NCBI GenBank assembly: GCA_964585935.1
Contig: CAZPFO010000005.1
Coordinates: 1 to 61,403 of the forward strand
Length of the DNA: 61,403 nucleotides
From: an uncultured Methanosarcinales archaeon
GTDB lineage: Archaea > Nanobdellota > Nanobdellia > Woesearchaeales > GW2011-AR4
Direction of reading: 5' to 3'
Part shown: piece by piece, positions 23,561 through 40,488 of the stretch
Layout: every line of letters begins with the position of its first letter
Numbering within the stretch: position 1 is the first letter of the stretch
The notes under the pieces: model-generated
What the model was told of the DNA's origin: nothing
The model's input: the letters and a program-made list of their open reading frames with translations, nothing else
Database searches by the model: none
Made by a program: the position numbers and the translations under genes

Positions 23561-24976
23561 ATGGAATTAAAAAAAATATCAGAATTTGAATGGGAACTGC
23601 CAAAGGAAGGTGCTATGAGAGTACCGGGTATTATATATGCTTCTGAAAAACTTCTTGAAAAAATAAAACAAGACAAAACACTGGAGCAGGTAAAAAATGT
23701 TGCATGCCTTAAGGGGATACAGAGAGCATCTTATGCTATGCCAGACGCGCATCAGGGTTATGGGTTTAGTATAGGTGGTGTTGCAGCATTTGATATGGAA
23801 GAAGGAGTTATTTCTCCAGGCGGAGTAGGGTATGATATTAATTGCGGTGTTAGGCTGTTAAGAACAGACCTCAAAGCAGATGATGTTCTGTCAAAAAGAA
23901 AACAATTGCTAGATGAAATTTACAAAGAAGTCCCTGCTGGAGTTGGCAAAGGAGGCATTACAAAACTTTCCAAAGATGTTTTGATGGAAGTCTTAAGCAA
24001 GGGAGCAAGGTGGGCTGTTGAAAATGGTTATGGGGCTAAAGAAGATTTGCAGAAAACAGAAGAATATGGCAATATGAAAGCGAATGCTCATGATGTTTCT
24101 GAAAAGGCCTTGAAAAGGGGGATTCCTCAATTAGGGACTTTAGGAGCTGGAAATCATTTTCTTGAAATGCAGAAAGTTGATCAGATTTTTGACAAAGAAG
24201 TTGCAAAAAGTTTTGGTGTTGAAGAAGAAGGCCAGGTAATGGTAATGATTCATTGCGGTTCAAGAGGGCTAGGGCATCAGGTTGCTTCGGATTATATCCG
24301 GAAGATGGAAGATAAGTATGGTGTTGAGGGTTTGCCTGATAGAGAATTGATTAATGCGCCAATAAAATCAGAGCTTGGCCAGAAATATTACAATGCAATG
24401 TGCGCTTCTGTTAATTTTGCATTTGCCAACAGGCAGATGATAGCTCACTGGACAAGGGATGTTTTCAAAAAGGTTTTTGGAAGCTCAGATGGGATGCAGC
24501 AAGTTTATGATGTATGTCACAATCTTGCGAAATTTGAAAAACATGAAGTGGATGGTGAAACAAAAGAAGTCTGCGTTCACAGAAAAGGCGCAACCCGCTC
24601 TTTCGGACCTGGAAGGGAAGAGGTTCCGGAAGTTTACAGGAAAATTGGACAGCCAGTTATTATACCTGGGAGTATGGGAACAGCATCTTATCTATTAACA
24701 GGCACGAAAAAGGCTGAGGAGATAAGCTTTGGAAGCACTGCTCATGGTGCTGGAAGGGTAGGTTCAAGATCAGAAGCATTAAGGACATTGAGAGGGGAGC
24801 AGGTAGCCAAGGATTTGGCAAATAAAGGCATAGAAGTTAAGGGCTCATGGAGAGGGCTTGCAGAGGAGGCGCCTCAGATGTATAAGGATATTGATGAGGT
24901 GGTTAATGTAAGCCATAAGTTGGGGATAGGTAATTTAGTTGCAAGATTTGTACCTTTGGCAGTCATGAAGGGCTGA
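23561..24976 (+). CDS. rtcB: RNA-splicing ligase RtcB
   Basis: MPDAHQGYGF, GYDINCG, GTLGAGNHFLE, HCGSRG, HRKGAT, HGAGR. Confidence 0.97.
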   Translation: MELKKISEFEWELPKEGAMRVPGIIYASEKLLEKIKQDKTLEQVKNVACLKGIQRASYAMPDAHQGYGFSIGGVAAFDMEEGVISPGGVGYDINCGVRLLRTDLKADDVLSKRKQLLDEIYKEVPAGVGKGGITKLSKDVLMEVLSKGARWAVENGYGAKEDLQKTEEYGNMKANAHDVSEKALKRGIPQLGTLGAGNHFLEMQKVDQIFDKEVAKSFGVEEEGQVMVMIHCGSRGLGHQVASDYIRKMEDKYGVEGLPDRELINAPIKSELGQKYYNAMCASVNFAFANRQMIAHWTRDVFKKVFGSSDGMQQVYDVCHNLAKFEKHEVDGETKEVCVHRKGATRSFGPGREEVPEVYRKIGQPVIIPGSMGTASYLLTGTKKAEEISFGSTAHGAGRVGSRSEALRTLRGEQVAKDLANKGIEVKGSWRGLAEEAPQMYKDIDEVVNVSHKLGIGNLVARFVPLAVMKG

Positions 24977-25043: not shown

Positions 25044-25091
25044 ATACAACATATTGTATCTATTTTATAATTTAACCACAACATATTGTGT
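25044..25091 (+). promoter_or_regulatory. tandem NrdR boxes upstream of nrdJ
   Basis: ATACAACATATTGTAT (25044-25059) and CCACAACATATTGTGT (25076-25091), 32 bp apart, fit acaCwAtATaTwGtgt. Confidence 0.88.
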
Positions 25092-25100
25092 TTTGTCTGA

Positions 25101-28100
25101 ATGGTAAAAATGGTTGGCAAGATAACAAAACGGGATGGAAGAGTCGTCGATTTTGAAAAAGAAAAAATAACAGAAGCTATTTTCAAGGCTGCTGAGGCTG
25201 TTGGCGGCAAAGACAAGGAAACAGCAGAAAAGATTTCTGATGAGGTTATCAAAGAAGTAGAATCGAAGTTTAAAGAAAAAATACCCAGTGTTGAAGAAGT
25301 TCAGGATATAGTTGAAAAAACTTTAATTGAAAAAGGACATGCAACAACTGCAAAGGCCTATATCATTTACAGGCAGAAAAGGGCAGAGGAAAGAAAAACA
25401 AAGGCAGCAGTTATTGGCAAGGTTGTTGAGACAAAGCTTTCAGTTAATGCCCTCAAGGTTCTGAAGGAAAGATATCTTCTGAAGGATGATGAGGGAGATG
25501 TTATTGAGACTCCAAATGACTTGTTCAGGAGGGTAGCAAAAAATATTGCACATGCTGATTTGAATTATAATATCAAAAATGCAAAAGATAGTGAAGAGAA
25601 ATTCTATAATCTGATGGCTAATCTGGATTTTTTACCCAATAGCCCAACCTTGATGAATGCAGGCACAGACATACAGCAGTTAGCTGCTTGCTTTGTTCTG
25701 CCTATAGAAGACAGCATGGAAGGAATCTTCAAGACATTGATGCATGCTGCAATAATACATAAAAGCGGGGGAGGCACGGGTTTTTCTTTTTCAAGGCTCA
25801 GGTCAAGGAGCTCTCGCGTTAAATCAACACAGGGTGTTGCCTCAGGACCGGTTTCATTTCTAACCGTATATAATGCTGCAACTGATGTCATAAAGCAAGG
25901 CGGAAAAAGAAGAGGGGCTAATATGGGTATATTAAAGATTGACCATCCAGATATCCTGGATTTTATAAACTGCAAGGAAAAGAATGATGCTATAACTAAT
26001 TTTAATATTTCGGTTGCGCTGACGGAGGAGTTTGTGAGTGCTGTTGAAAAGAATGAAGAGTATAGTTTAATAGATCCTTCTAACAGGGAAGAGGTTACAA
26101 AGTTAAATGCTACTACTGTTTTTGACCTGATTGTTGCTGGTGCATGGCGCAATGGAGACCCCGGAATTGTTTTTATTGACAGGATAAACAAAGATAATCC
26201 AACTCCTGGTTTAGGGAATATAGAGGCTACTAATCCATGCGTAATTGGCAGTACCCTTATACCGACTGAATTGGGATTAATAAGGATGGAAGAATTGTAT
26301 AAAAAATACTCAGATGGGGGAGCCAGTATAGTTACTGATAACAGAGTCCCTATCCAACATGGTAGCGGAGGGCAAAAATTATTAATGTCAAATAAATCAG
26401 AAGGAGTTACCTTAAGACAGATTACAAGAGTTCTTAATAACGGAAAGAAGAAAGTTGTAAAAATAGTTACAAAATCAGGTTATGAAGTAGTTGTAACTAA
26501 AGATCATAAAGTTTTCTCATCAAATAAAGAATGGGTAAAAGTTGAGGAACTTAAAACAGGAGATAAAGTATGTATACAAAGCGGAGCAGGTGTTTTCAAT
26601 TCGGATAAAAAATTAAAAATTGATTTTGAAAAAATAAATAAATTATCAAAACGTATGAATTTGCCTGCAGAATGGTCAAAAGAGCTTGGGCAGGTTTTAG
26701 GTTGGTTGGTTGGCGATGGTTGGTTGAGAGATAAGGATGAAAACTGCAGAGCAGGTTTTGTTTTTGGAGAAGAAGATAAAAAACTTTTAGATTATTTTAA
26801 GAAGATATTAAATAAGTATTATAACCACAATATAAAAGAAATTAAAAGAGAAAACAGAGTATTTCATCTTTCTTATCATGGAAGAGGATTTGTAGAATTT
26901 TTCAAGGAATTAGGTGTAAAAGCTGTTTCATCAAAATACAAAGTGGTTCCTGAATCTATATTTACCTCAACAGAAGAAGCAGTTGTTGGTTTCTTACAGG
27001 CCTTGTTTACAGCAGACGGCACTATTGGCAAAAAGGACAAAGAGATAAGGCTAACATCATCCTCAAAAAAACTATTGAAAGGTGTTCAGCTGTTATTATT
27101 GAACATGGGCATGAAATCGAAAATTTATTCAAGGAAATATAGCAATTCTAAACCATTTACTTACAAAACAATTAATGGTGAAGACCGAGTTTATCATTCT
27201 GACGGTTTTTATTATGAATTGATAATTGATGGTTTAGGCAGGAGGTTATTTTTGGATAAAATTGGTTTTTTGAATAAAAAACAAGACAAGTTAGCTCGAA
27301 GTGTTAATTTCTGCAAGAAGATGGTCTTTGAGGATGAAATCGTATTAATCAAAGACTGTGGAGAGGAGGTTGTATATGATCTTACAGAACCTGAAACAGT
27401 CAGTTTCATAACAAATGGCATTGTGTCTCTGGATTGCGGTGAACAGCCATTATTGCCTTATGAAGCGTGTAATCTTGGCTCAATAAATTTGGGTAATTTT
27501 GTCAAAGACGAGGGTGTTGATTTGGAACGGCTCAAACAAGTTGTGCATGACTGTACCCATTTTCTTGACAATGTAATTGATATGAGCAAATATCCTATAC
27601 CTGATATAGATAAAATGGTCAGGGCTAACAGAAAAATTGGCCTGGGTGTTATGGGCTGGGCTGATATGCTTGTGCAACTTGGAATTCCTTACAACTCTGA
27701 AGAAGGGATTAAGATGGCTGATAAGATCATGGGCTTCATCAAAGAAGAGGCTGACAAGGCTTCTGTTGAGCTGGCAAAAACCAGGGGAGTATTTCCGAAC
27801 TGGAAAGACAGCATCTACAACAAGGAGAGCAAATTTTTCAAAGGGAATCATATGGAGATAAGGAATGCCACAAGAACAACTATTGCTCCTACTGGCACGA
27901 TTGGTATGATAGCGGATGCATCTGGGGGTGTGGAGCCTTTGTTTGCATTAAGCTATGTTAAGAGGGTTATGGATGGCCAGGAATTGTTTTATGTTGACAA
28001 AAATTTCAAAAAAGCGCTAGAAGAGAATAAAATTTGTGATGAAATCCTGCTGGAGAAAGTTATTGATAAGGGAACTATTGAGAATATTGAGGAGATACCT

Positions 28101-28454
28101 GAAAAGATAAAGAGGGTTTTTGTTGTTGCGCATGATATAACTCCTGAATACCATGTAAAGATGCAGGCAGCTTTCCAGAGAAATATAGACAATGCAGTCT
28201 CGAAGACAGTAAATTTCACCCATGATGCGACTGTTGATGATGTTAAAAATGTTTATATGCTTGCGCATAAATCAGGCTGCAAAGGAGTCACAATATACAG
28301 GGATGGCAGCAAGGGCGAGCAGGTTCTAAACCTGAACATTGACATCAAAAAAGAGAAAAAAGACAAATCAAAGTGCCCTGAATGCAGTGGAAGTATGGTC
28401 ATGGAAGAGGGGTGTGCAAAGTGCCATTCCTGCGGTTATTCTGTTTGCAGCTAG
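25101..28454 (+). CDS. nrdJ: class II (AdoCbl-dependent) ribonucleotide reductase with N-terminal ATP-cone, intein and C-terminal zinc ribbon
   Basis: ITKRDGRVVDF ATP-cone, FLPNSPTLMN, QQLAACFV, KQGGKRRGAN, TNP|CGEQPL split by intein, ACNLGSINL, TIAPTG, SKTVN, KGVTIYRDGS. Confidence 0.95.
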   Translation: MVKMVGKITKRDGRVVDFEKEKITEAIFKAAEAVGGKDKETAEKISDEVIKEVESKFKEKIPSVEEVQDIVEKTLIEKGHATTAKAYIIYRQKRAEERKTKAAVIGKVVETKLSVNALKVLKERYLLKDDEGDVIETPNDLFRRVAKNIAHADLNYNIKNAKDSEEKFYNLMANLDFLPNSPTLMNAGTDIQQLAACFVLPIEDSMEGIFKTLMHAAIIHKSGGGTGFSFSRLRSRSSRVKSTQGVASGPVSFLTVYNAATDVIKQGGKRRGANMGILKIDHPDILDFINCKEKNDAITNFNISVALTEEFVSAVEKNEEYSLIDPSNREEVTKLNATTVFDLIVAGAWRNGDPGIVFIDRINKDNPTPGLGNIEATNPCVIGSTLIPTELGLIRMEELYKKYSDGGASIVTDNRVPIQHGSGGQKLLMSNKSEGVTLRQITRVLNNGKKKVVKIVTKSGYEVVVTKDHKVFSSNKEWVKVEELKTGDKVCIQSGAGVFNSDKKLKIDFEKINKLSKRMNLPAEWSKELGQVLGWLVGDGWLRDKDENCRAGFVFGEEDKKLLDYFKKILNKYYNHNIKEIKRENRVFHLSYHGRGFVEFFKELGVKAVSSKYKVVPESIFTSTEEAVVGFLQALFTADGTIGKKDKEIRLTSSSKKLLKGVQLLLLNMGMKSKIYSRKYSNSKPFTYKTINGEDRVYHSDGFYYELIIDGLGRRLFLDKIGFLNKKQDKLARSVNFCKKMVFEDEIVLIKDCGEEVVYDLTEPETVSFITNGIVSLDCGEQPLLPYEACNLGSINLGNFVKDEGVDLERLKQVVHDCTHFLDNVIDMSKYPIPDIDKMVRANRKIGLGVMGWADMLVQLGIPYNSEEGIKMADKIMGFIKEEADKASVELAKTRGVFPNWKDSIYNKESKFFKGNHMEIRNATRTTIAPTGTIGMIADASGGVEPLFALSYVKRVMDGQELFYVDKNFKKALEENKICDEILLEKVIDKGTIENIEEIPEKIKRVFVVAHDITPEYHVKMQAAFQRNIDNAVSKTVNFTHDATVDDVKNVYMLAHKSGCKGVTIYRDGSKGEQVLNLNIDIKKEKKDKSKCPECSGSMVMEEGCAKCHSCGYSVCS
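26238..27434 (+). mobile_element. intein with LAGLIDADG homing endonuclease (399 aa) at TNP/CGE site of RNR
   Basis: Starts CVIGSTLI; block B VTKDHKV; LAGLIDADG motifs LGWLVGDG and LQALFTADG; block F VYDLT; ends NGIVSLD before C(+1). Confidence 0.95.
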
Positions 28455-28463
28455 ATTTTGTTC

Positions 28464-28568
28464 TGTCAAGAACCGCCAGTCATAGATTAGCGGAATGTTG
28501 TTGCTAGCTGTTAAGCAAGGCGGTTCTTGAGCATGCTCAGAAATTTCTCTGAAAATTTCTGACATTTT
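28464..28568. repeat. palindromic intergenic element (copy B)
   Basis: TCAAGAACCGCC(28466-28477)/GGCGGTTCTTGA(28519-28530); CAGAAATTT(28538-28546)/AAATTTCTG(28553-28561); TGTCA...TGACA ends. Confidence 0.8.
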
Positions 28569-36569: not shown

Positions 36570-39314
36570 GTGGTTAAAAAAAACTGGCTAGTCAGAATTG
36601 TCGTTTCGCTGTTAATTATATCTTTCTTATTCATATCTGGATCAGTGGGGCTTTTAACTGATTATTTCTGGTTTGACGCATTGGGCTTCTCGCAGATTTT
36701 TTTAATAAGCCTCCAGTCAAAGATAATTTTGTTTTTTGTCGGAGCCATAGCTTTCTTTTTATTTGCAGGCCTTAATCTATGGATTTCATCAAAACTAAAC
36801 AATGCAAAAAAGAATCTCATATCTGCTAAACTCAAACTGGTAATTGTACTTTTATTGTCATTCATGTTTGGTATAGCTGCATCTTCAAAATGGTTTATGG
36901 TACTTCAATACCTTAAACAAACACCGTTTAGCATACAGGATCCTATTTTCATGAAGGATGTTGCTTTCTATATTTTCTCATTGCCATTATTCCTGGTGTT
37001 GTGGAGCTTTGTAATGGTGTTGGTTGTTGCCACAATAATCCTTGTCTTGCTGAATTACCTCCAGTCACTGGCCTTTGGCCTTAAAAAACCAGATGCGCAA
37101 AAGCCAGAAGCTCCAAATCCGCTCGGGTCATTGCCTACCGTGCCTTCATTTGATTTCAAAGGGATATTATCTCAATTCAAGAAAAAAGCAATAGTCCATC
37201 TTGGATTACTGATATCACTTATTTTCGCTCTGCTTTCAATAAAGCATTATCTTTCACGCTTCTCAATCATGTATTCAGAAGAAGGAATTGTGGTTGGAGC
37301 AGGATATTCTGATGTTATTGCATACCTCCCGACTGTCAAGATTTTAATGGTTCTTTCGATTATTGTTGCTGTATTGTTTATTGTATGGATATTTTATTTC
37401 TCAAGAAAACCTCAATTAAAGAAACGCCATATAATGCTTTATGCGGTATTCATCTACCTGTTATTCGGTTTTATAGGCCCAACTTTAATTCCCGGGGTTG
37501 TGCAGGCATTAAAGGTTACTCCTAATGAGATAAACCTGGAAACGCCTTACATAGAGCACAATATCAAATTTACTAAGTTAGCCTATGGCCTCTCTGATGT
37601 TGAGGAAAATGATTTTTCTGTTGAGCTTGGCTTGACACCTGACGTATTGGATCGTGCCTCAGAAACGATTGATAATGTGAGGATACTGGACTGGAGGCCA
37701 TTGATAAAAACATACAAGCAGACCCAGGAGATCAGGCTGTATTATGACCTTTCAGGAATTGATATTGACAGGTATTACATCAATGGAAAATATACCCAAG
37801 TAATGCTTGCTCCTAGAGAGCTTGACCAAAACCAAATTGCAGAAAATGCCAAAACATGGGTAAATCTCCATATGGTCTATACCCATGGTATGGGGGTTGT
37901 GATGAGTCCTGTTAACTCAGTTACGAAAGAAGGAATACCTAATTTCTTTATCAAGGATATACCACCTATATATACAGTAGAGGAAGACAACCTGAAGATA
38001 TCCAGGCCACAGATATATTACGGAGAAACAGACAATGATTTTGTAATTGTAAACACAAAAACAAATGAATTTGACTATCCTCAAGGAGACACAAACCAGT
38101 ATATCAATTATGATGGTAAAGGTGGGGTTGTGCTTAACTCATTCATAAAAAAAGTGCTGATGGCTGCCAGGTTTTCTGACATCAAAATACTTTTGTCAAC
38201 AGACATAACACCTGAAAGCAAGATAATGTTCATAAGGAACATACAGCAAAGGATAAACAAGATCACTCCATTTTTGGCAATGGACGAAGACCCTTACCTG
38301 GTTATTCATGATGGCAGGCTGCTCTGGATTCAGGATGCATATACAGTTTCAGGAAATTTCCCATACTCAGAAAAGTACAACAATATAAACTATATAAGAA
38401 ATTCAGTAAAAGTGGTTGTTGATGCGTATGACGGAGATATCAAATACTATATTATCGATACTTCAGACCCACTGATAGTTACATATGCAAGAATATTCCC
38501 TAAGCAGTTTAAAAGGTTTGAGAGTATGCCAGAGAGCCTTAAAAAACACATCAGGTATCCTGTAGACCTTTTCAAAATCCAGTCATCCATATACAACACA
38601 TACCATATGGATGATGTAAAAGTATTCTATAATAAGGAGGATGCATGGCAGGTTCCTCATGAGATTTATGGTGTAGGCCAAAGAGTAAGTGTGGAGCCTT
38701 ATTATATAATAATGAAGCTGCCTGACGAGGATGAAGAGGAATTTGTGCTTATGAGTTCATTTACACCTATAAAGAAGGATAACATGATCTCGTGGATGGC
38801 AGCGCGGTCAGACGGAGAAAATTATGGAAAACTGATAGTTTACAGGTTCCCTAAAGATAAATTGATTTACGGGCCGCTGCAGATAGAGGCTAAGTTTGAC
38901 CAGGATTCTGTTATTTCAGAGCAGCTTACATTATGGTCCCAGCAGGGTTCTCAAGTTACAAGAGGGAATCTCCTTGTGATACCGATAGAAAATAGCATAC
39001 TTTACATAGAGCCATTGTACATACAGGCAGAAACAGGGCAGCTTCCTGAATTGAAAAGAGTTTTAGTTTCTGATGGAGAAAGAGTTGTGATGGAAAAAGA
39101 CCTTGCTTCTGCTTTAGAAGTCCTGTTTGGGAAAGCAAGGAAAAAAACTGTTAGTGGAGAATTAAAGCCTGAAGGCAAATCACCTGATGAGCTGGTTCAG
39201 GAGGCTGATCTATATTACAATGAGATATTAGATTCGATGAATAAACAAGATTGGGCTGGAATTGGAGATAATTTTGACAAGCTAGGCAAGGTATTGAAAG
39301 CGCTTAAAGGATAA
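36570..39314 (+). CDS. UPF0182 family membrane protein
   Basis: DYFWF, DPIFMKDVAFYIFSLP, NVRILDWRPL, HMVYTHG, NYIRNSVK, YNTYHMDD, LLVIP; GTG start. Confidence 0.92.
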   Translation: MVKKNWLVRIVVSLLIISFLFISGSVGLLTDYFWFDALGFSQIFLISLQSKIILFFVGAIAFFLFAGLNLWISSKLNNAKKNLISAKLKLVIVLLLSFMFGIAASSKWFMVLQYLKQTPFSIQDPIFMKDVAFYIFSLPLFLVLWSFVMVLVVATIILVLLNYLQSLAFGLKKPDAQKPEAPNPLGSLPTVPSFDFKGILSQFKKKAIVHLGLLISLIFALLSIKHYLSRFSIMYSEEGIVVGAGYSDVIAYLPTVKILMVLSIIVAVLFIVWIFYFSRKPQLKKRHIMLYAVFIYLLFGFIGPTLIPGVVQALKVTPNEINLETPYIEHNIKFTKLAYGLSDVEENDFSVELGLTPDVLDRASETIDNVRILDWRPLIKTYKQTQEIRLYYDLSGIDIDRYYINGKYTQVMLAPRELDQNQIAENAKTWVNLHMVYTHGMGVVMSPVNSVTKEGIPNFFIKDIPPIYTVEEDNLKISRPQIYYGETDNDFVIVNTKTNEFDYPQGDTNQYINYDGKGGVVLNSFIKKVLMAARFSDIKILLSTDITPESKIMFIRNIQQRINKITPFLAMDEDPYLVIHDGRLLWIQDAYTVSGNFPYSEKYNNINYIRNSVKVVVDAYDGDIKYYIIDTSDPLIVTYARIFPKQFKRFESMPESLKKHIRYPVDLFKIQSSIYNTYHMDDVKVFYNKEDAWQVPHEIYGVGQRVSVEPYYIIMKLPDEDEEEFVLMSSFTPIKKDNMISWMAARSDGENYGKLIVYRFPKDKLIYGPLQIEAKFDQDSVISEQLTLWSQQGSQVTRGNLLVIPIENSILYIEPLYIQAETGQLPELKRVLVSDGERVVMEKDLASALEVLFGKARKKTVSGELKPEGKSPDELVQEADLYYNEILDSMNKQDWAGIGDNFDKLGKVLKALKG

Positions 39315-39349
39315 TTAAAAAAATCAATCATTAAAGGAGGCGGTGAAGA

Positions 39350-39472
39350 ATGAGTTTTTTTCCAAAATGTCTTAAATGTGATAAAGGCGATTTAGTTCCA
39401 TTCAGCTTCAAGGAAGATGTCTTTGAGAAATGGAAATGCACTAATTGCAGCCATGAAATCTCAAAAAGGTAA
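39350..39472 (+). CDS. 40-aa zinc-ribbon microprotein
   Basis: MSFFPKCLKCDKGDLVPFSFKEDVFEKWKCTNCSHEISKR; AGGAGG/GGTGA RBS directly upstream; not in ORF track. Confidence 0.75.
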   Translation: MSFFPKCLKCDKGDLVPFSFKEDVFEKWKCTNCSHEISKR

Positions 39473-39516
39473 CATATGGTATACCATCTACTAAAAAGAA
39501 CTATAGTTTATATTTT

Positions 39517-39711
39517 TTAATCCAAAACAAGCCCGCATTTTTTACAGTAGAGTTCTCCGTTTTCATAAGCAATGCTTTCGGTATTGCAGTCAGGGCAGAC
39601 TCTCTGCTTTTCCTCGAGCTTTAAGCCTCCAAGGCTTTTTTCATTAAATACCCTTGCCATAGGCCTAACTAGGCTAATTTGATTTTTAAAGGTTTCGGAA
39701 TTTGGCACCAT
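39517..39711 (-). CDS. stand-alone TFIIB-type zinc-ribbon protein (probable start 39660)
   Basis: CPDCNTESIAYENGELYCKKCGLVL. Confidence 0.75.
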   Translation of the reverse strand: MVPNSETFKNQISLVRPMARVFNEKSLGGLKLEEKQRVCPDCNTESIAYENGELYCKKCGLVLD

Positions 39712-39756
39712 AAATCTATAAACTTAAAATTCGTGGTTTTTAGTAAATTTTAATTT

Positions 39757-40488
39757 TTATTGAGTCCAAGAATTAAAATCCCTATAAGCATCTTCACAAA
39801 AACCCCTGTAGTAAGCATCTATTGAATCGCATACAAAAGGGGCATCTGGTTTAATTAAATAAACCTCAGTTCCATCAGGTTTTTTAAAATCAAGTTTATT
39901 TTTATTAAAATAAGATACAACGCTATAATAACAATATTCTTTAAGGCCTGTTGAATATTCTTTACAAAATTCAGAGCCTTTATTATATGCTATTATATTT
40001 TCTATTTTGCATGTTATTTCAGTATGATACCTTCTGTATATATCTTCAACATCTCTAAATTGAGTATACCATTCACATGTACCCGGGTCACGGTATCTGT
40101 CAATTATTCTTTTGATACATGCCTGCCTAACATTTTTATTTTTAGAATCATCCGCAATCTCTAAACATAAACTCGGATTGTTGTCCCTAATTGCTTTTGC
40201 GTTAATGCTCAAATCCTCTTCATTAACAAAGTAAGCCATTACAATCTCTCTGCACTTTCTTCTCTGAGTTTTAATTGCATAATGTCCTGGCAACATCCCA
40301 AAAGAACCTTCATAATATCGCGTATAAATTTTAAAAAAAGGTATTTTGTTACAATAAGATAGATCACCATTCTCCCTAGCTTTGTTGGTATAATAACCTG
40401 AACTTCCAGGATAAAAAACAGCAATAAGGATTATTAGAAGGAGTAAAATAACAACTCCGATGATCAATAATATTTTTTTCCAGTTCAT
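39757..40488 (-). CDS. membrane-anchored Cys-rich surface protein
   Basis: N-terminal hydrophobic anchor; degenerate C-x(9-16)-C[YI] units related to the 16984 repeat. Confidence 0.75.
   Translation of the reverse strand: MNWKKILLIIGVVILLLLIILIAVFYPGSSGYYTNKARENGDLSYCNKIPFFKIYTRYYEGSFGMLPGHYAIKTQRRKCREIVMAYFVNEEDLSINAKAIRDNNPSLCLEIADDSKNKNVRQACIKRIIDRYRDPGTCEWYTQFRDVEDIYRRYHTEITCKIENIIAYNKGSEFCKEYSTGLKEYCYYSVVSYFNKNKLDFKKPDGTEVYLIKPDAPFVCDSIDAYYRGFCEDAYRDFNSWTQ

What the first reader, a model, noticed from the sequence alone, without database searches (positions are those of the whole stretch)
26238..27434. RNR intein ending in Leu-Asp instead of His-Asn, inserted in front of the catalytic cysteine
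Seen: the intein ends ...NGIVSLD (GAT at 27432-27434) followed by CGEQPL, and retains C1, TxxH and both LAGLIDADG motifs. Known: canonical splicing needs C-terminal Asn cyclisation, usually aided by a penultimate His; Asp-terminal inteins are very rare (one was described in the Carboxydothermus hydrogenoformans RNR). The +1 Cys of NPCGE is the thiyl-radical residue, so RNR is inactive unless splicing occurs. Inference: a functional atypical-chemistry intein, possibly conditionally splicing. An AAT-to-GAT change alone would not also explain the missing His.
Basis: partly seen in the sequence, partly recalled or inferred. Interest (0 to 1): 0.7.

Follow-up and report, generated by a model that had tools for sequence, protein, structure and literature searches.

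The report
Asp-ending homing intein in B12 RNR
The only ribonucleotide reductase gene found in this small archaeal genome is interrupted at its catalytic cysteine by a self-splicing intein that ends in Leu-Asp instead of His-Asn, and this ending is a common, conserved variant of a known intein type, not a defect.

Summary
The ORF at 25101-28454 (+) encodes a class II (B12) ribonucleotide reductase. A 399-residue LAGLIDADG intein (26238-27434) sits between Pro and the thiyl-radical Cys of NPCGE and ends ...NGIVSLD|CGEQPL.

GAT at 27432-27434 is the same in contigs assembled from three separate vent metagenome samples. A same-genus genome has the uninterrupted site, which fixes the boundaries.

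Asp endings are not rare at this site. Of 279 related inteins retrieved, 117 end in Asp, 117 in Asn and 45 in Gln. No Asp-ending intein has His at the penultimate position (G:6) or at block F position 13. Leu usually replaces both, and Ser occupies G:5 in 110 of 117.

The positions that best separate Asp-ending from other inteins all lie in the last 12 residues. This tail state changes at least 8 times on the intein tree.

The intein evolves under the same purifying selection as the enzyme (dN/dS 0.08). No second RNR was found in the 85%-complete genome.

It is most likely a working intein of the Asp-ending RNR type reported for Carboxydothermus hydrogenoformans in 2004. It is a new member of a known kind. 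Conditional splicing is untested.

The parts
25101..28454 (+). nrdJ precursor ORF (1117 aa): ATP-cone, RNR all-alpha domain and RNR barrel domain, interrupted by the intein
   Evidence: PF02867 7e-134, PF00317, PF03477
25101..26237 (+). N-extein (379 aa), ending ...GNIEATNP
   Evidence: contiguous with the C-extein in the same-genus orthologue L018
26238..27434 (+). Intein, 399 aa (P0001): HINT splicing domain with an inserted double-motif LAGLIDADG homing endonuclease
   Evidence: AF2 pLDDT 89; best PDB folds are the TliVMA and PhoVMA inteins and PI-PfuI
26238..26240 (+). Cys1, the N-terminal splicing nucleophile (block A); the -1 residue is Pro
   Evidence: Cys in 189/189 aligned relatives
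26496..26507 (+). Block B, T87-K-D-H90 (TxxH)
   Evidence: Thr and His invariant in all 83 Asp-ending relatives
26697..26723 (+). LAGLIDADG motif 1, LGWLVGDGW (catalytic Asp160)
   Evidence: G155, G159, D160 and G161 at least 95% conserved
26994..27023 (+). LAGLIDADG motif 2, LQALFTADGT (catalytic Asp260)
   Evidence: D260 and G261 at least 95% conserved; PF14528 8.8e-22
27369..27398 (+). Block F start, VVYDLTEPET, with Asp381 (F:4)
   Evidence: Asp381 in 83/83 Asp-ending relatives
27399..27434 (+). Asp-type tail module, V388-S-F-I-T-N-G-I-V-S397-L398-D399. It has Val at F:13 (normally His), Ser at G:5, Leu at G:6 (normally His) and Asp at G:7 (normally Asn).
   Evidence: the six most discriminating alignment positions (399, 388, 398, 397, 392, 390) all lie here
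27435..27437 (+). Cys+1: the C-extein nucleophile, which is also the thiyl-radical Cys of the NPCGE motif
   Evidence: its role in RNR comes from established knowledge of class II RNR
27435..28454 (+). C-extein (339 aa plus stop), CGEQPLLPYEACNLGS...
25046..25089 (+). Context: two ACAACATATTGT boxes 32 bp apart just upstream of nrdJ (NrdR-box-like)

Best explanation
This is a functional class 1-type intein with an active-looking LAGLIDADG homing endonuclease. It is inserted between Pro and the radical Cys of the NPCGE motif of the genome's only detected RNR.

Inferred mechanism:
1. Cys1 forms a thioester with the N-extein, helped by Thr87/His90 (block B) and Asp381 (F:4).
2. Cys+1 takes over the N-extein, giving a branched intermediate.
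3. The intein is released at Asp399 without either of the usual helper histidines. The most likely route is attack of the Asp side-chain carboxyl(ate) on its own backbone carbonyl, giving a cyclic anhydride that then hydrolyses. The surroundings are Val388/Leu398 plus the hydroxyl residues Thr392 and Ser397.
4. An S-to-N shift restores NPCGE and an active NrdJ.

At the DNA level the element is a homing intein. It is present here and in a few relatives and absent from a same-genus genome.

It belongs to the Asp-ending group of class II RNR inteins. Its experimentally studied example is, by my recollection, the Chy RIR1 intein.
For: Shown here:
- The frame is intact and all N-terminal and block F:4 catalytic residues are present.
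- A confident AF2 model (pLDDT 89, pTM 0.90) has a HINT + LAGLIDADG fold. Its best PDB matches are the TliVMA and PhoVMA inteins, PI-PfuI and PI-SceI.
- The base calls are identical in contigs from 3 samples.
- The insertion is clean relative to the same-genus empty site.
- Only one RNR (PF02867) and no NrdD were found in the genome.
- dN/dS against two relatives at about 85% identity is 0.08 for the whole intein, 0.05 for the endonuclease domain and 0.025 for the C-terminal splicing block. The exteins give 0.078.
- The Asp ending occurs in 117/279 allelic inteins from bacteria and archaea, always without His at G:6 and F:13.
- The co-variation holds over 8 phylogenetically independent contrasts: F:13 non-His 6:0 (p about 0.03) and G:5 Ser 7:0 (p about 0.016).
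- The distribution is sporadic: 3 of 60 relatives carry a related intein.

From the literature:
- Asp and Gln termini can cyclise and splice (review PMC4031507).
- Amitai, Dassa and Pietrokovski 2004 is cited there and in PMC4760082.
Against: - No splicing assay exists for this intein.
- The chemistry of step 3 is inferred, not shown. As I recall the abstract of Amitai et al. 2004, C-terminal cleavage persisted in an Asp-to-Ala mutant of the Chy intein, so simple Asp cyclisation may not be the whole story.
- The Chy RIR1 sequence could not be retrieved. Whether it shares the same site and tail is therefore untested.
- The genome is only 85% complete, so a second RNR cannot be excluded.
- dS is near saturation (1.0-2.2) in the window comparisons. 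The less diverged L004/L005 pair gives 0.15 for the intein against 0.07-0.08 for the exteins.
Confidence: 0.85

Rival explanations
1. The intein does splice, but the last step is not Asp cyclisation. The branched ester or the scissile bond would be resolved by a different route, for example water or a Ser397/Thr392-assisted attack, with Asp399 acting as a general acid/base or in positioning. On this reading the His-free tail is a mechanistically distinct module.
For: - Both histidines that reviews assign to Asn cyclisation are absent in 117/117 Asp-ending inteins.
- Hydroxyl residues are gained at G:5 (Ser in 110/117) and at position 392 (Thr/Ser).
- Recollection of Amitai 2004: the Chy intein D345A mutant still showed C-terminal cleavage, and D345N did not splice.
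Against: - The terminal residue is strictly Asp (117/117), as expected if its side chain is the nucleophile.
- Reviews treat Asp, Gln and Glu termini as cyclising analogues of Asn.
- No structural or kinetic data are available.
Confidence: 0.25
2. The intein is a decayed, non-splicing remnant. The NrdJ precursor would be inactive, and the cell would get dNTPs from a host or from an RNR in the unassembled 15% of the genome.
For: - It has a non-canonical terminus.
- The genome is small (1.16 Mb, 85% complete), as in possibly host-dependent archaea.
Against: - The intein dN/dS is 0.08, equal to that of the exteins, and its C-terminal block is the most constrained part.
- There are no stops or frameshifts.
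- Both endonuclease catalytic Asp residues are kept.
- The same tail is conserved in over 100 inteins across bacteria and archaea.
- NrdR-like boxes lie upstream of the gene and cobO lies downstream, as in the syntenic relative L005.
Confidence: 0.04
3. The Leu-Asp ending is an assembly or sequencing artefact of a canonical His-Asn ending.
For: None found.
Against: - Contigs from three samples agree with 0 differences over 27200-27700.
- Converting CTG-GAT to CAY-AAY would need at least three base changes.
- The relatives L004 and L005 encode the same ...NGIVSLD|CGEQ.
Confidence: 0.01

Closest known systems
Chy RIR1 intein (Carboxydothermus hydrogenoformans ribonucleotide reductase; Amitai, Dassa & Pietrokovski 2004, J Biol Chem 279:3121. 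The paper is not held here; its title is cited in PMC4760082 and PMC4031507, and the details are from my memory of the abstract.)
   Same: It is an RNR intein with a C-terminal Asp instead of Asn, and it was reported to splice in its wild-type form. The terminal Asp was reported to be irreplaceable: changes to Asn, Gln, Glu or Ala abolished splicing.
   Different: The Chy intein is bacterial and shorter (345 aa as I recall, against 399 aa here). I could not retrieve its sequence. Its insertion site, penultimate residue and F:13 residue were therefore not compared.
Canonical and Gln-ending inteins at the same NrdJ NP|CGE site (e.g. P0101 of Thermoanaerobacterium, ...VVHQ; L007 in a same-order genome, ...VIHN)
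   Same: They share the insertion site, Cys1, TxxH, Asp F:4, Cys+1 and the LAGLIDADG domain. Their bodies are 45-55% identical to the window's intein.
   Different: They keep His at F:13 (Gln-ending 44/45, Asn-ending 88/117) and often at G:6, and they end in Asn or Gln. The window's intein has Val, Leu and Asp at these three positions.
Gln-ending inteins studied biochemically (CIV RNR and Pab Pol II; review PMC4031507)
   Same: They have a non-Asn terminal residue that is thought to cyclise, and splicing is retained.
   Different: They end in Gln rather than Asp. Pab Pol II splices better when changed to Asn, whereas the Chy Asp intein reportedly does not tolerate Asn.
Solved HE-associated inteins: TliVMA/PhoVMA (7qsu, 7qss, 7qst) and PI-PfuI (1dq3, from the Pyrococcus RNR)
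   Same: They have the same two-domain architecture by sequence (E 1e-17) and by predicted fold (Foldseek E 3e-25 to 4e-19).
   Different: They differ in host protein or insertion site, and they have canonical C-termini.

Membership tests
Intein (HINT domain, class 1 splicing) | Nucleophile (Cys/Ser) at intein position 1 | tested here: met
   Cys1 at 26238-26240; Cys in 189/189 relatives
Intein (HINT domain, class 1 splicing) | Block B Thr-x-x-His | tested here: met
   T87-K-D-H90
Intein (HINT domain, class 1 splicing) | Block F position 4 Asp | tested here: met
   Asp381 in VYDL; 83/83 in the Asp group
Intein (HINT domain, class 1 splicing) | C-terminal Asn (G:7) preceded by His (G:6), with His at F:13 | tested here: not met
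   Asp399, Leu398 and Val388. This departure is a recognised variant, since Asp and Gln termini are described in PMC4031507.
Intein (HINT domain, class 1 splicing) | Cys/Ser/Thr at +1 of the C-extein | tested here: met
   Cys+1 at 27435-27437
Intein (HINT domain, class 1 splicing) | In-frame insertion whose precise removal restores a conserved host motif; intein-free alleles exist | tested here: met
   Same-genus L018 and same-order L019-L021 read ...TNP|CGEQPLLPYE uninterrupted
Intein (HINT domain, class 1 splicing) | HINT fold | tested here: met
   PF14890 5e-14; the AF2 model (pLDDT 89) matches intein structures at E down to 3e-25
Intein (HINT domain, class 1 splicing) | Demonstrated protein splicing | not testable with these tools
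   Needs expression of a precursor and detection of ligated exteins
Asp-ending RNR inteins (Chy RIR1 type) | C-terminal Asp in an RNR-hosted intein | tested here: met
   shared with 117/279 allelic inteins
Asp-ending RNR inteins (Chy RIR1 type) | Sequence homology and same insertion site as the characterised Chy RIR1 intein | not tested
   The Chy sequence was not retrievable.
Double-motif LAGLIDADG homing endonuclease | Two LAGLIDADG motifs, each with its catalytic acidic residue, in one chain | tested here: met
   LGWLVGD160GW and LQALFTAD260GT; PF14528 8.8e-22 and PF03161 1.5e-6; dN/dS 0.05; fold matches to I-DmoI and PI-PfuI
Double-motif LAGLIDADG homing endonuclease | Cleavage of the intein-less allele | not testable with these tools
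   A candidate target is known from L018
Class 3 inteins (WCT triplet) and class 2 inteins (Ala1) | Cys at F:4 with no position-1 nucleophile (class 3), or Ala1 (class 2) | tested here: not met
   Cys1 is present and F:4 is Asp, so the intein is neither class 2 nor class 3

The most novel reading that the evidence does not exclude
The last 12 residues (consensus L-[ST]-F-I-[TS]-N-G-x-x-S-L-D; V-S-F-I-T-N-G-I-V-S-L-D here) may be a self-contained, histidine-free catalytic module for intein release. It would be mechanistically distinct from Asn/Gln cyclisation assisted by the F:13 and G:6 histidines.

This module would be exchanged between otherwise closely related allelic NrdJ inteins, either by recombination or by repeated all-or-none switching. 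That would explain why the tail state changes at least 8 times on the body tree. It would also explain why sister inteins diverge sharply right after ...DLTEP (P0050 against P0009: 79% identity before the tail, 36% in it).

If this is right, these inteins form an unrecognised mechanistic sub-class with a portable C-terminal active site.
Probability: 0.3. Interest if true: 0.55.

Novelty: new member of a known kind. Interest (0 to 1): 0.3.

Why it matters
For this organism, the only detected route to deoxyribonucleotides depends on an intein that uses non-standard chemistry at the very residue that carries the RNR radical. Splicing efficiency therefore sets the supply of active enzyme.

For intein biology, this single case adds little, because an Asp-ending RNR intein was shown to splice in 2004.

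The family-level picture is not in the reviews I could read. It has three parts:
- Asp endings are as common as Asn endings at this site.
- Asp endings always come with loss of both helper histidines and gain of Ser at G:5.
- The tail state switches repeatedly between close relatives.

This picture suggests testable residues for how branch resolution works without histidines. It may also offer a compact Asp-type C-terminal cleavage module for protein engineering.

Tried and rejected
1. Retrieving the Chy RIR1 sequence or paper. The DOI is not held. The single genome-contig scan with one protein returned only two Actinomycetota loci, both ending ...VRN. Cluster names and a second homologue search seeded with a shorter Asp-type intein showed no Carboxydothermus entry. 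The link to Chy RIR1 therefore rests on memory and on cited titles.

2. Naming the organism. Cluster look-ups of orthologues gave a truncated name or none, so I did not pursue this.

3. Alternative intein boundaries. Ending at Asn393, or shifting by one residue to VIG...LDC, was rejected. The empty site requires removal of exactly 399 residues, and Gly cannot serve as the +1 nucleophile.

4. A body residue compensating for the lost histidines. A scan of all alignment columns found no discriminating position outside residues 388-399. The next-best total-variation score was 0.59, at background level.

5. Asking whether swapping of the endonuclease domain explains the non-monophyly of the Asp state. 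Trees from the splicing domain alone, from the HE domain alone, or from residues 300-385 alone all need 15-19 Asp/non-Asp changes.

6. A conserved redox-switch Cys. None was found in the splicing domain.

7. My first regular expressions mis-assigned some junctions to an internal CGEE or were too strict. They were replaced.
Full report
**What is there**

The ORF at 25101-28454 (+) encodes a 1117-aa protein. Pfam finds an ATP-cone, the RNR all-alpha domain and the RNR barrel domain (PF02867, 7e-134). The barrel is interrupted by Intein_splicing (PF14890, 5e-14) and LAGLIDADG_3 (PF14528, 8.8e-22).

Translation of 26238-27434 gives an open 399-aa intein, CVIGSTLIPTE...ETVSFITNGIVSLD. It is flanked by ...GNIEATNP and CGEQPLLPYEACNLGS. 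The key codons are:
- GAT (Asp399) at 27432-27434
- CTG (Leu398) at 27429-27431
- TGC (Cys+1) at 27435-27437

The retained motifs are:
- block B, T87-K-D-H90
- block F Asp381, in VYDL
- LAGLIDADG motif 1, LGWLVGD160GW
- LAGLIDADG motif 2, LQALFTAD260GT

**It is not an artefact**

Contigs assembled independently (Logan) from three samples of one hydrothermal-vent metagenome study cover 27200-27700 with no differences. One of these samples may be the source of the window.

Two relatives from other data sets encode the same ...ITNGIVSLD|CGEQPL junction:
- L004, whose intein is 85% identical in protein
- L005, which is syntenic (aminotransferase, archease, RtcB, nrdJ, cobO)

**Boundaries and mobility**

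A same-genus genome (G001) has an uninterrupted 717-aa NrdJ that is 78% identical. It reads ...ACTAATCCA|TGCGGGGAGCAGCC... exactly where the window has ...ACTAATCCA|[1197 nt]|TGCGGTGAACAGCC.... Three same-order genomes also have empty sites.

Only 3 of 60 relatives carry a related full-length intein, and those three end in ...HN. This sporadic distribution is what a homing element shows.

**Is it maintained?**

dN/dS was calculated by the Nei-Gojobori method against L004 and L005:

| Region | dN/dS |
|---|---|
| Whole intein | 0.08 |
| Endonuclease domain | 0.05 |
| Last 43 residues (against L004 only; dS saturated against L005) | 0.025 |
| Exteins | 0.078 |

dS is high (1.0-2.2) in these comparisons. 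The less diverged L004/L005 pair gives 0.15 for the intein and 0.07-0.08 for the exteins.

AlphaFold2 with a 37-sequence alignment gives a confident model (pLDDT 89, pTM 0.90). Its best PDB neighbours are the HE-associated inteins TliVMA and PhoVMA, then PI-PfuI, PI-PkoII and PI-SceI. Sequence search of the PDB agrees.

The genome is 1.16 Mb in 32 contigs and 85% complete. It has one PF02867 match and no NrdD. A search with the joined exteins finds only the two halves of this gene. As far as the assembly shows, the cell depends on this precursor being spliced.

**How unusual is Leu-Asp?**

A search of the 5.8-billion-protein collection with the intein region gave 2046 hits at E<1e-5. Every one of the best 120 whose N-terminal junction is present in the sequence has the intein at TNP|C...|CGE. 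Among those 120, 78-80 end in Asp: Leu-Asp 64, Val-Asp 6, Arg-Asp 6 and Phe-Asp 2. A further 22 end in Gln and 18 in Asn.

A less biased sample came from representatives of 50%-identity clusters, where 7471 had E<1e-3. About 14 of 115 inteins at the RNR Cys site end in Asp. These include a shorter '...LTWITNGF(I/V)S(L/F)D' subgroup.

Pooling everything retrieved gives 279 inteins at this site:

| Terminal residue | n | His at G:6 | His at F:13 | Ser at G:5 |
|---|---|---|---|---|
| Asp | 117 | 0 | 0 | 110 |
| Asn | 117 | 70 | 88 | 5 |
| Gln | 45 | 28 | 44 | 0 |

The named hosts of Asp-ending inteins span bacteria and archaea:
- Bacteria: Omnitrophota, Acidobacteriota, Anaerolineae, Eremiobacterota, and the candidate phyla Levybacteria and Daviesbacteria.
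- Archaea: Heimdall- and Odinarchaeia, Bathyarchaeota, Methanoperedens, Pace- and Woesearchaeota.

The pooled sample is enriched for relatives of the query, so 42% is not a population frequency. Even so, 'very rare' is clearly wrong for this site.

**A co-varying tail**

F:13 is the His seven residues after the block F Asp. Reviews assign it, together with the G:6 His, to catalysis of Asn cyclisation (PMC4031507; PMC7765530).

In the 189-sequence alignment the six positions that best separate Asp-ending from other inteins are 399, 388 (F:13), 398 (G:6), 397 (G:5), 392 and 390. Their total-variation scores run from 1.00 to 0.59, and the next positions are at the same background level.

The Asp tail reads L-[ST]-F-I-[TS]-N-G-x-x-S-L-D. 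The window has V-S-F-I-T-N-G-I-V-S-L-D. The N-terminal catalytic set (Cys1, Thr87, His90, Asp381) is invariant in the Asp group.

I built a FastTree tree from the intein body with the tail columns removed. On it, the Asp state needs 15 changes, and at least 8 are forced by branches with 95% or higher support. Using only the splicing domain or only the endonuclease domain gives 15-19 changes.

Across the 8 supported independent contrasts, F:13 non-His follows Asp 6:0 (p about 0.03) and G:5 Ser follows it 7:0 (p about 0.016).

Some sister inteins are nearly identical up to ...VYDLTEP and then diverge as a block. P0050 (...ETLTFISNGFISLD) and P0009 (...ATHSFIANGIVISN) are 79% identical over residues 341-385 and 36% identical in the tail.

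The window's intein lies in an all-Asp clade of eight (support 100) with P0003 and P0004 as nearest neighbours. It therefore inherited the tail and did not invent it.

**Mechanism**

Steps 1, 2 and 4 can proceed as in any class 1 intein, because their residues are all present.

Step 3 must work without both histidines. My preferred reading is attack of the Asp399 side-chain carboxyl on its own carbonyl, giving a cyclic anhydride and releasing the C-extein amine. The hydrophobic Val388/Leu398 pair would tune the Asp pKa, and Ser397/Thr392 would supply hydrogen bonds. This is inference only.

As I recall the abstract of Amitai et al. 2004, the Chy intein spliced only with Asp and still cleaved at its C-terminus with Ala. 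That leaves room for a route without cyclisation, which I list as a rival at 0.25.

**Comparison with what is known**

Asp- and Gln-terminated inteins are described in the 2014 JBC review. The Asp case in an RNR is the subject of Amitai, Dassa & Pietrokovski 2004; only the title could be verified, through the reference lists. I could not obtain the Chy RIR1 sequence. Membership in that particular lineage is therefore 'not tested', although the defining trait (an RNR intein ending in Asp) is met.

The intein is not class 2 or class 3, because Cys1 is present and F:4 is Asp.

Earlier follow-ups in this scan on other genomes reached the same conclusion and noted the same His-free tail (e1-1577607, e1-1294921, e1-1273446, e1-548521). 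My counts, tree and contrasts were made independently here and agree with them.

**Verdict**

'Functional and atypical' is supported, 'very rare' is not, and 'conditional' is untested.
- This is a new member of a known kind, of modest interest in itself.
- The family-level idea of a portable, histidine-free Asp tail remains the most novel reading the data allow.

Noticed in passing
window 25046-25057 and 25078-25089: Two identical ACAACATATTGT boxes lie 32 bp apart between an AT-rich promoter region and the nrdJ start. They resemble tandem NrdR operators, and another first-reader note says the window also encodes nrdR.
   Followed up: partly
L005 1689-4613 vs window 23561-24976: In the syntenic relative, RtcB is 974 aa and carries an intein (Intein_splicing plus a faint LAGLIDADG_3 hit). 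The window's RtcB is 471 aa and intein-free. The two related lineages therefore differ in intein content at a second locus.
   Followed up: no
L032 206-3373 (-), i.e. G000 contig C1 about 37205-40372: The same genome has a second intein, in what looks like a Ski2/Hel308-type helicase (1055-aa ORF). It has a canonical ending, ...HMFVANGFIVHN|SYG. The organism therefore hosts both Asn-type and Asp-type inteins.
   Followed up: partly
proteins P0145, P0152, P0179, P0238, P0247: A second, more divergent Asp-ending subgroup occurs at the same NrdJ site. Its tails read ...[TL][LF][TI]W[ITV]TNG[FYI]xS[LFY]D and its inteins are shorter (353-392 aa). Two further variants end ...TID and ...TWD (P0239, P0224).
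   Followed up: partly
window 26238-27434 vs exteins: Synonymous divergence of the intein is lower than that of the flanking exteins. Against L004 it is 1.03 versus 1.5-2.2. Between L004 and L005 it is 0.36 versus 0.59-0.66. This fits intein transfer between these lineages after they diverged, or a different codon constraint.
   Followed up: no
P0050 vs P0009, P0045 vs P0058, P0071 vs P0099: Sister inteins with 60-80% identical bodies carry different tail types (SLD versus ISN or VHQ). The break in similarity falls right after the DLTEP motif, which suggests recombination within the intein's 3' end.
   Followed up: partly
window 28464-28568: Just after the nrdJ stop there is a GC-richer nested inverted repeat (...GTCAAGAACCGCC...GGCGGTTCTTGAGC...). 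Another first-reader note lists it as one copy of a dispersed palindromic element.
   Followed up: no
all inteins at this site: The -1 residue is invariably Pro (NP|C). From memory, Pro at -1 is unfavourable for N-terminal thioester formation in engineered intein systems. This whole family evidently tolerates it.
   Followed up: no
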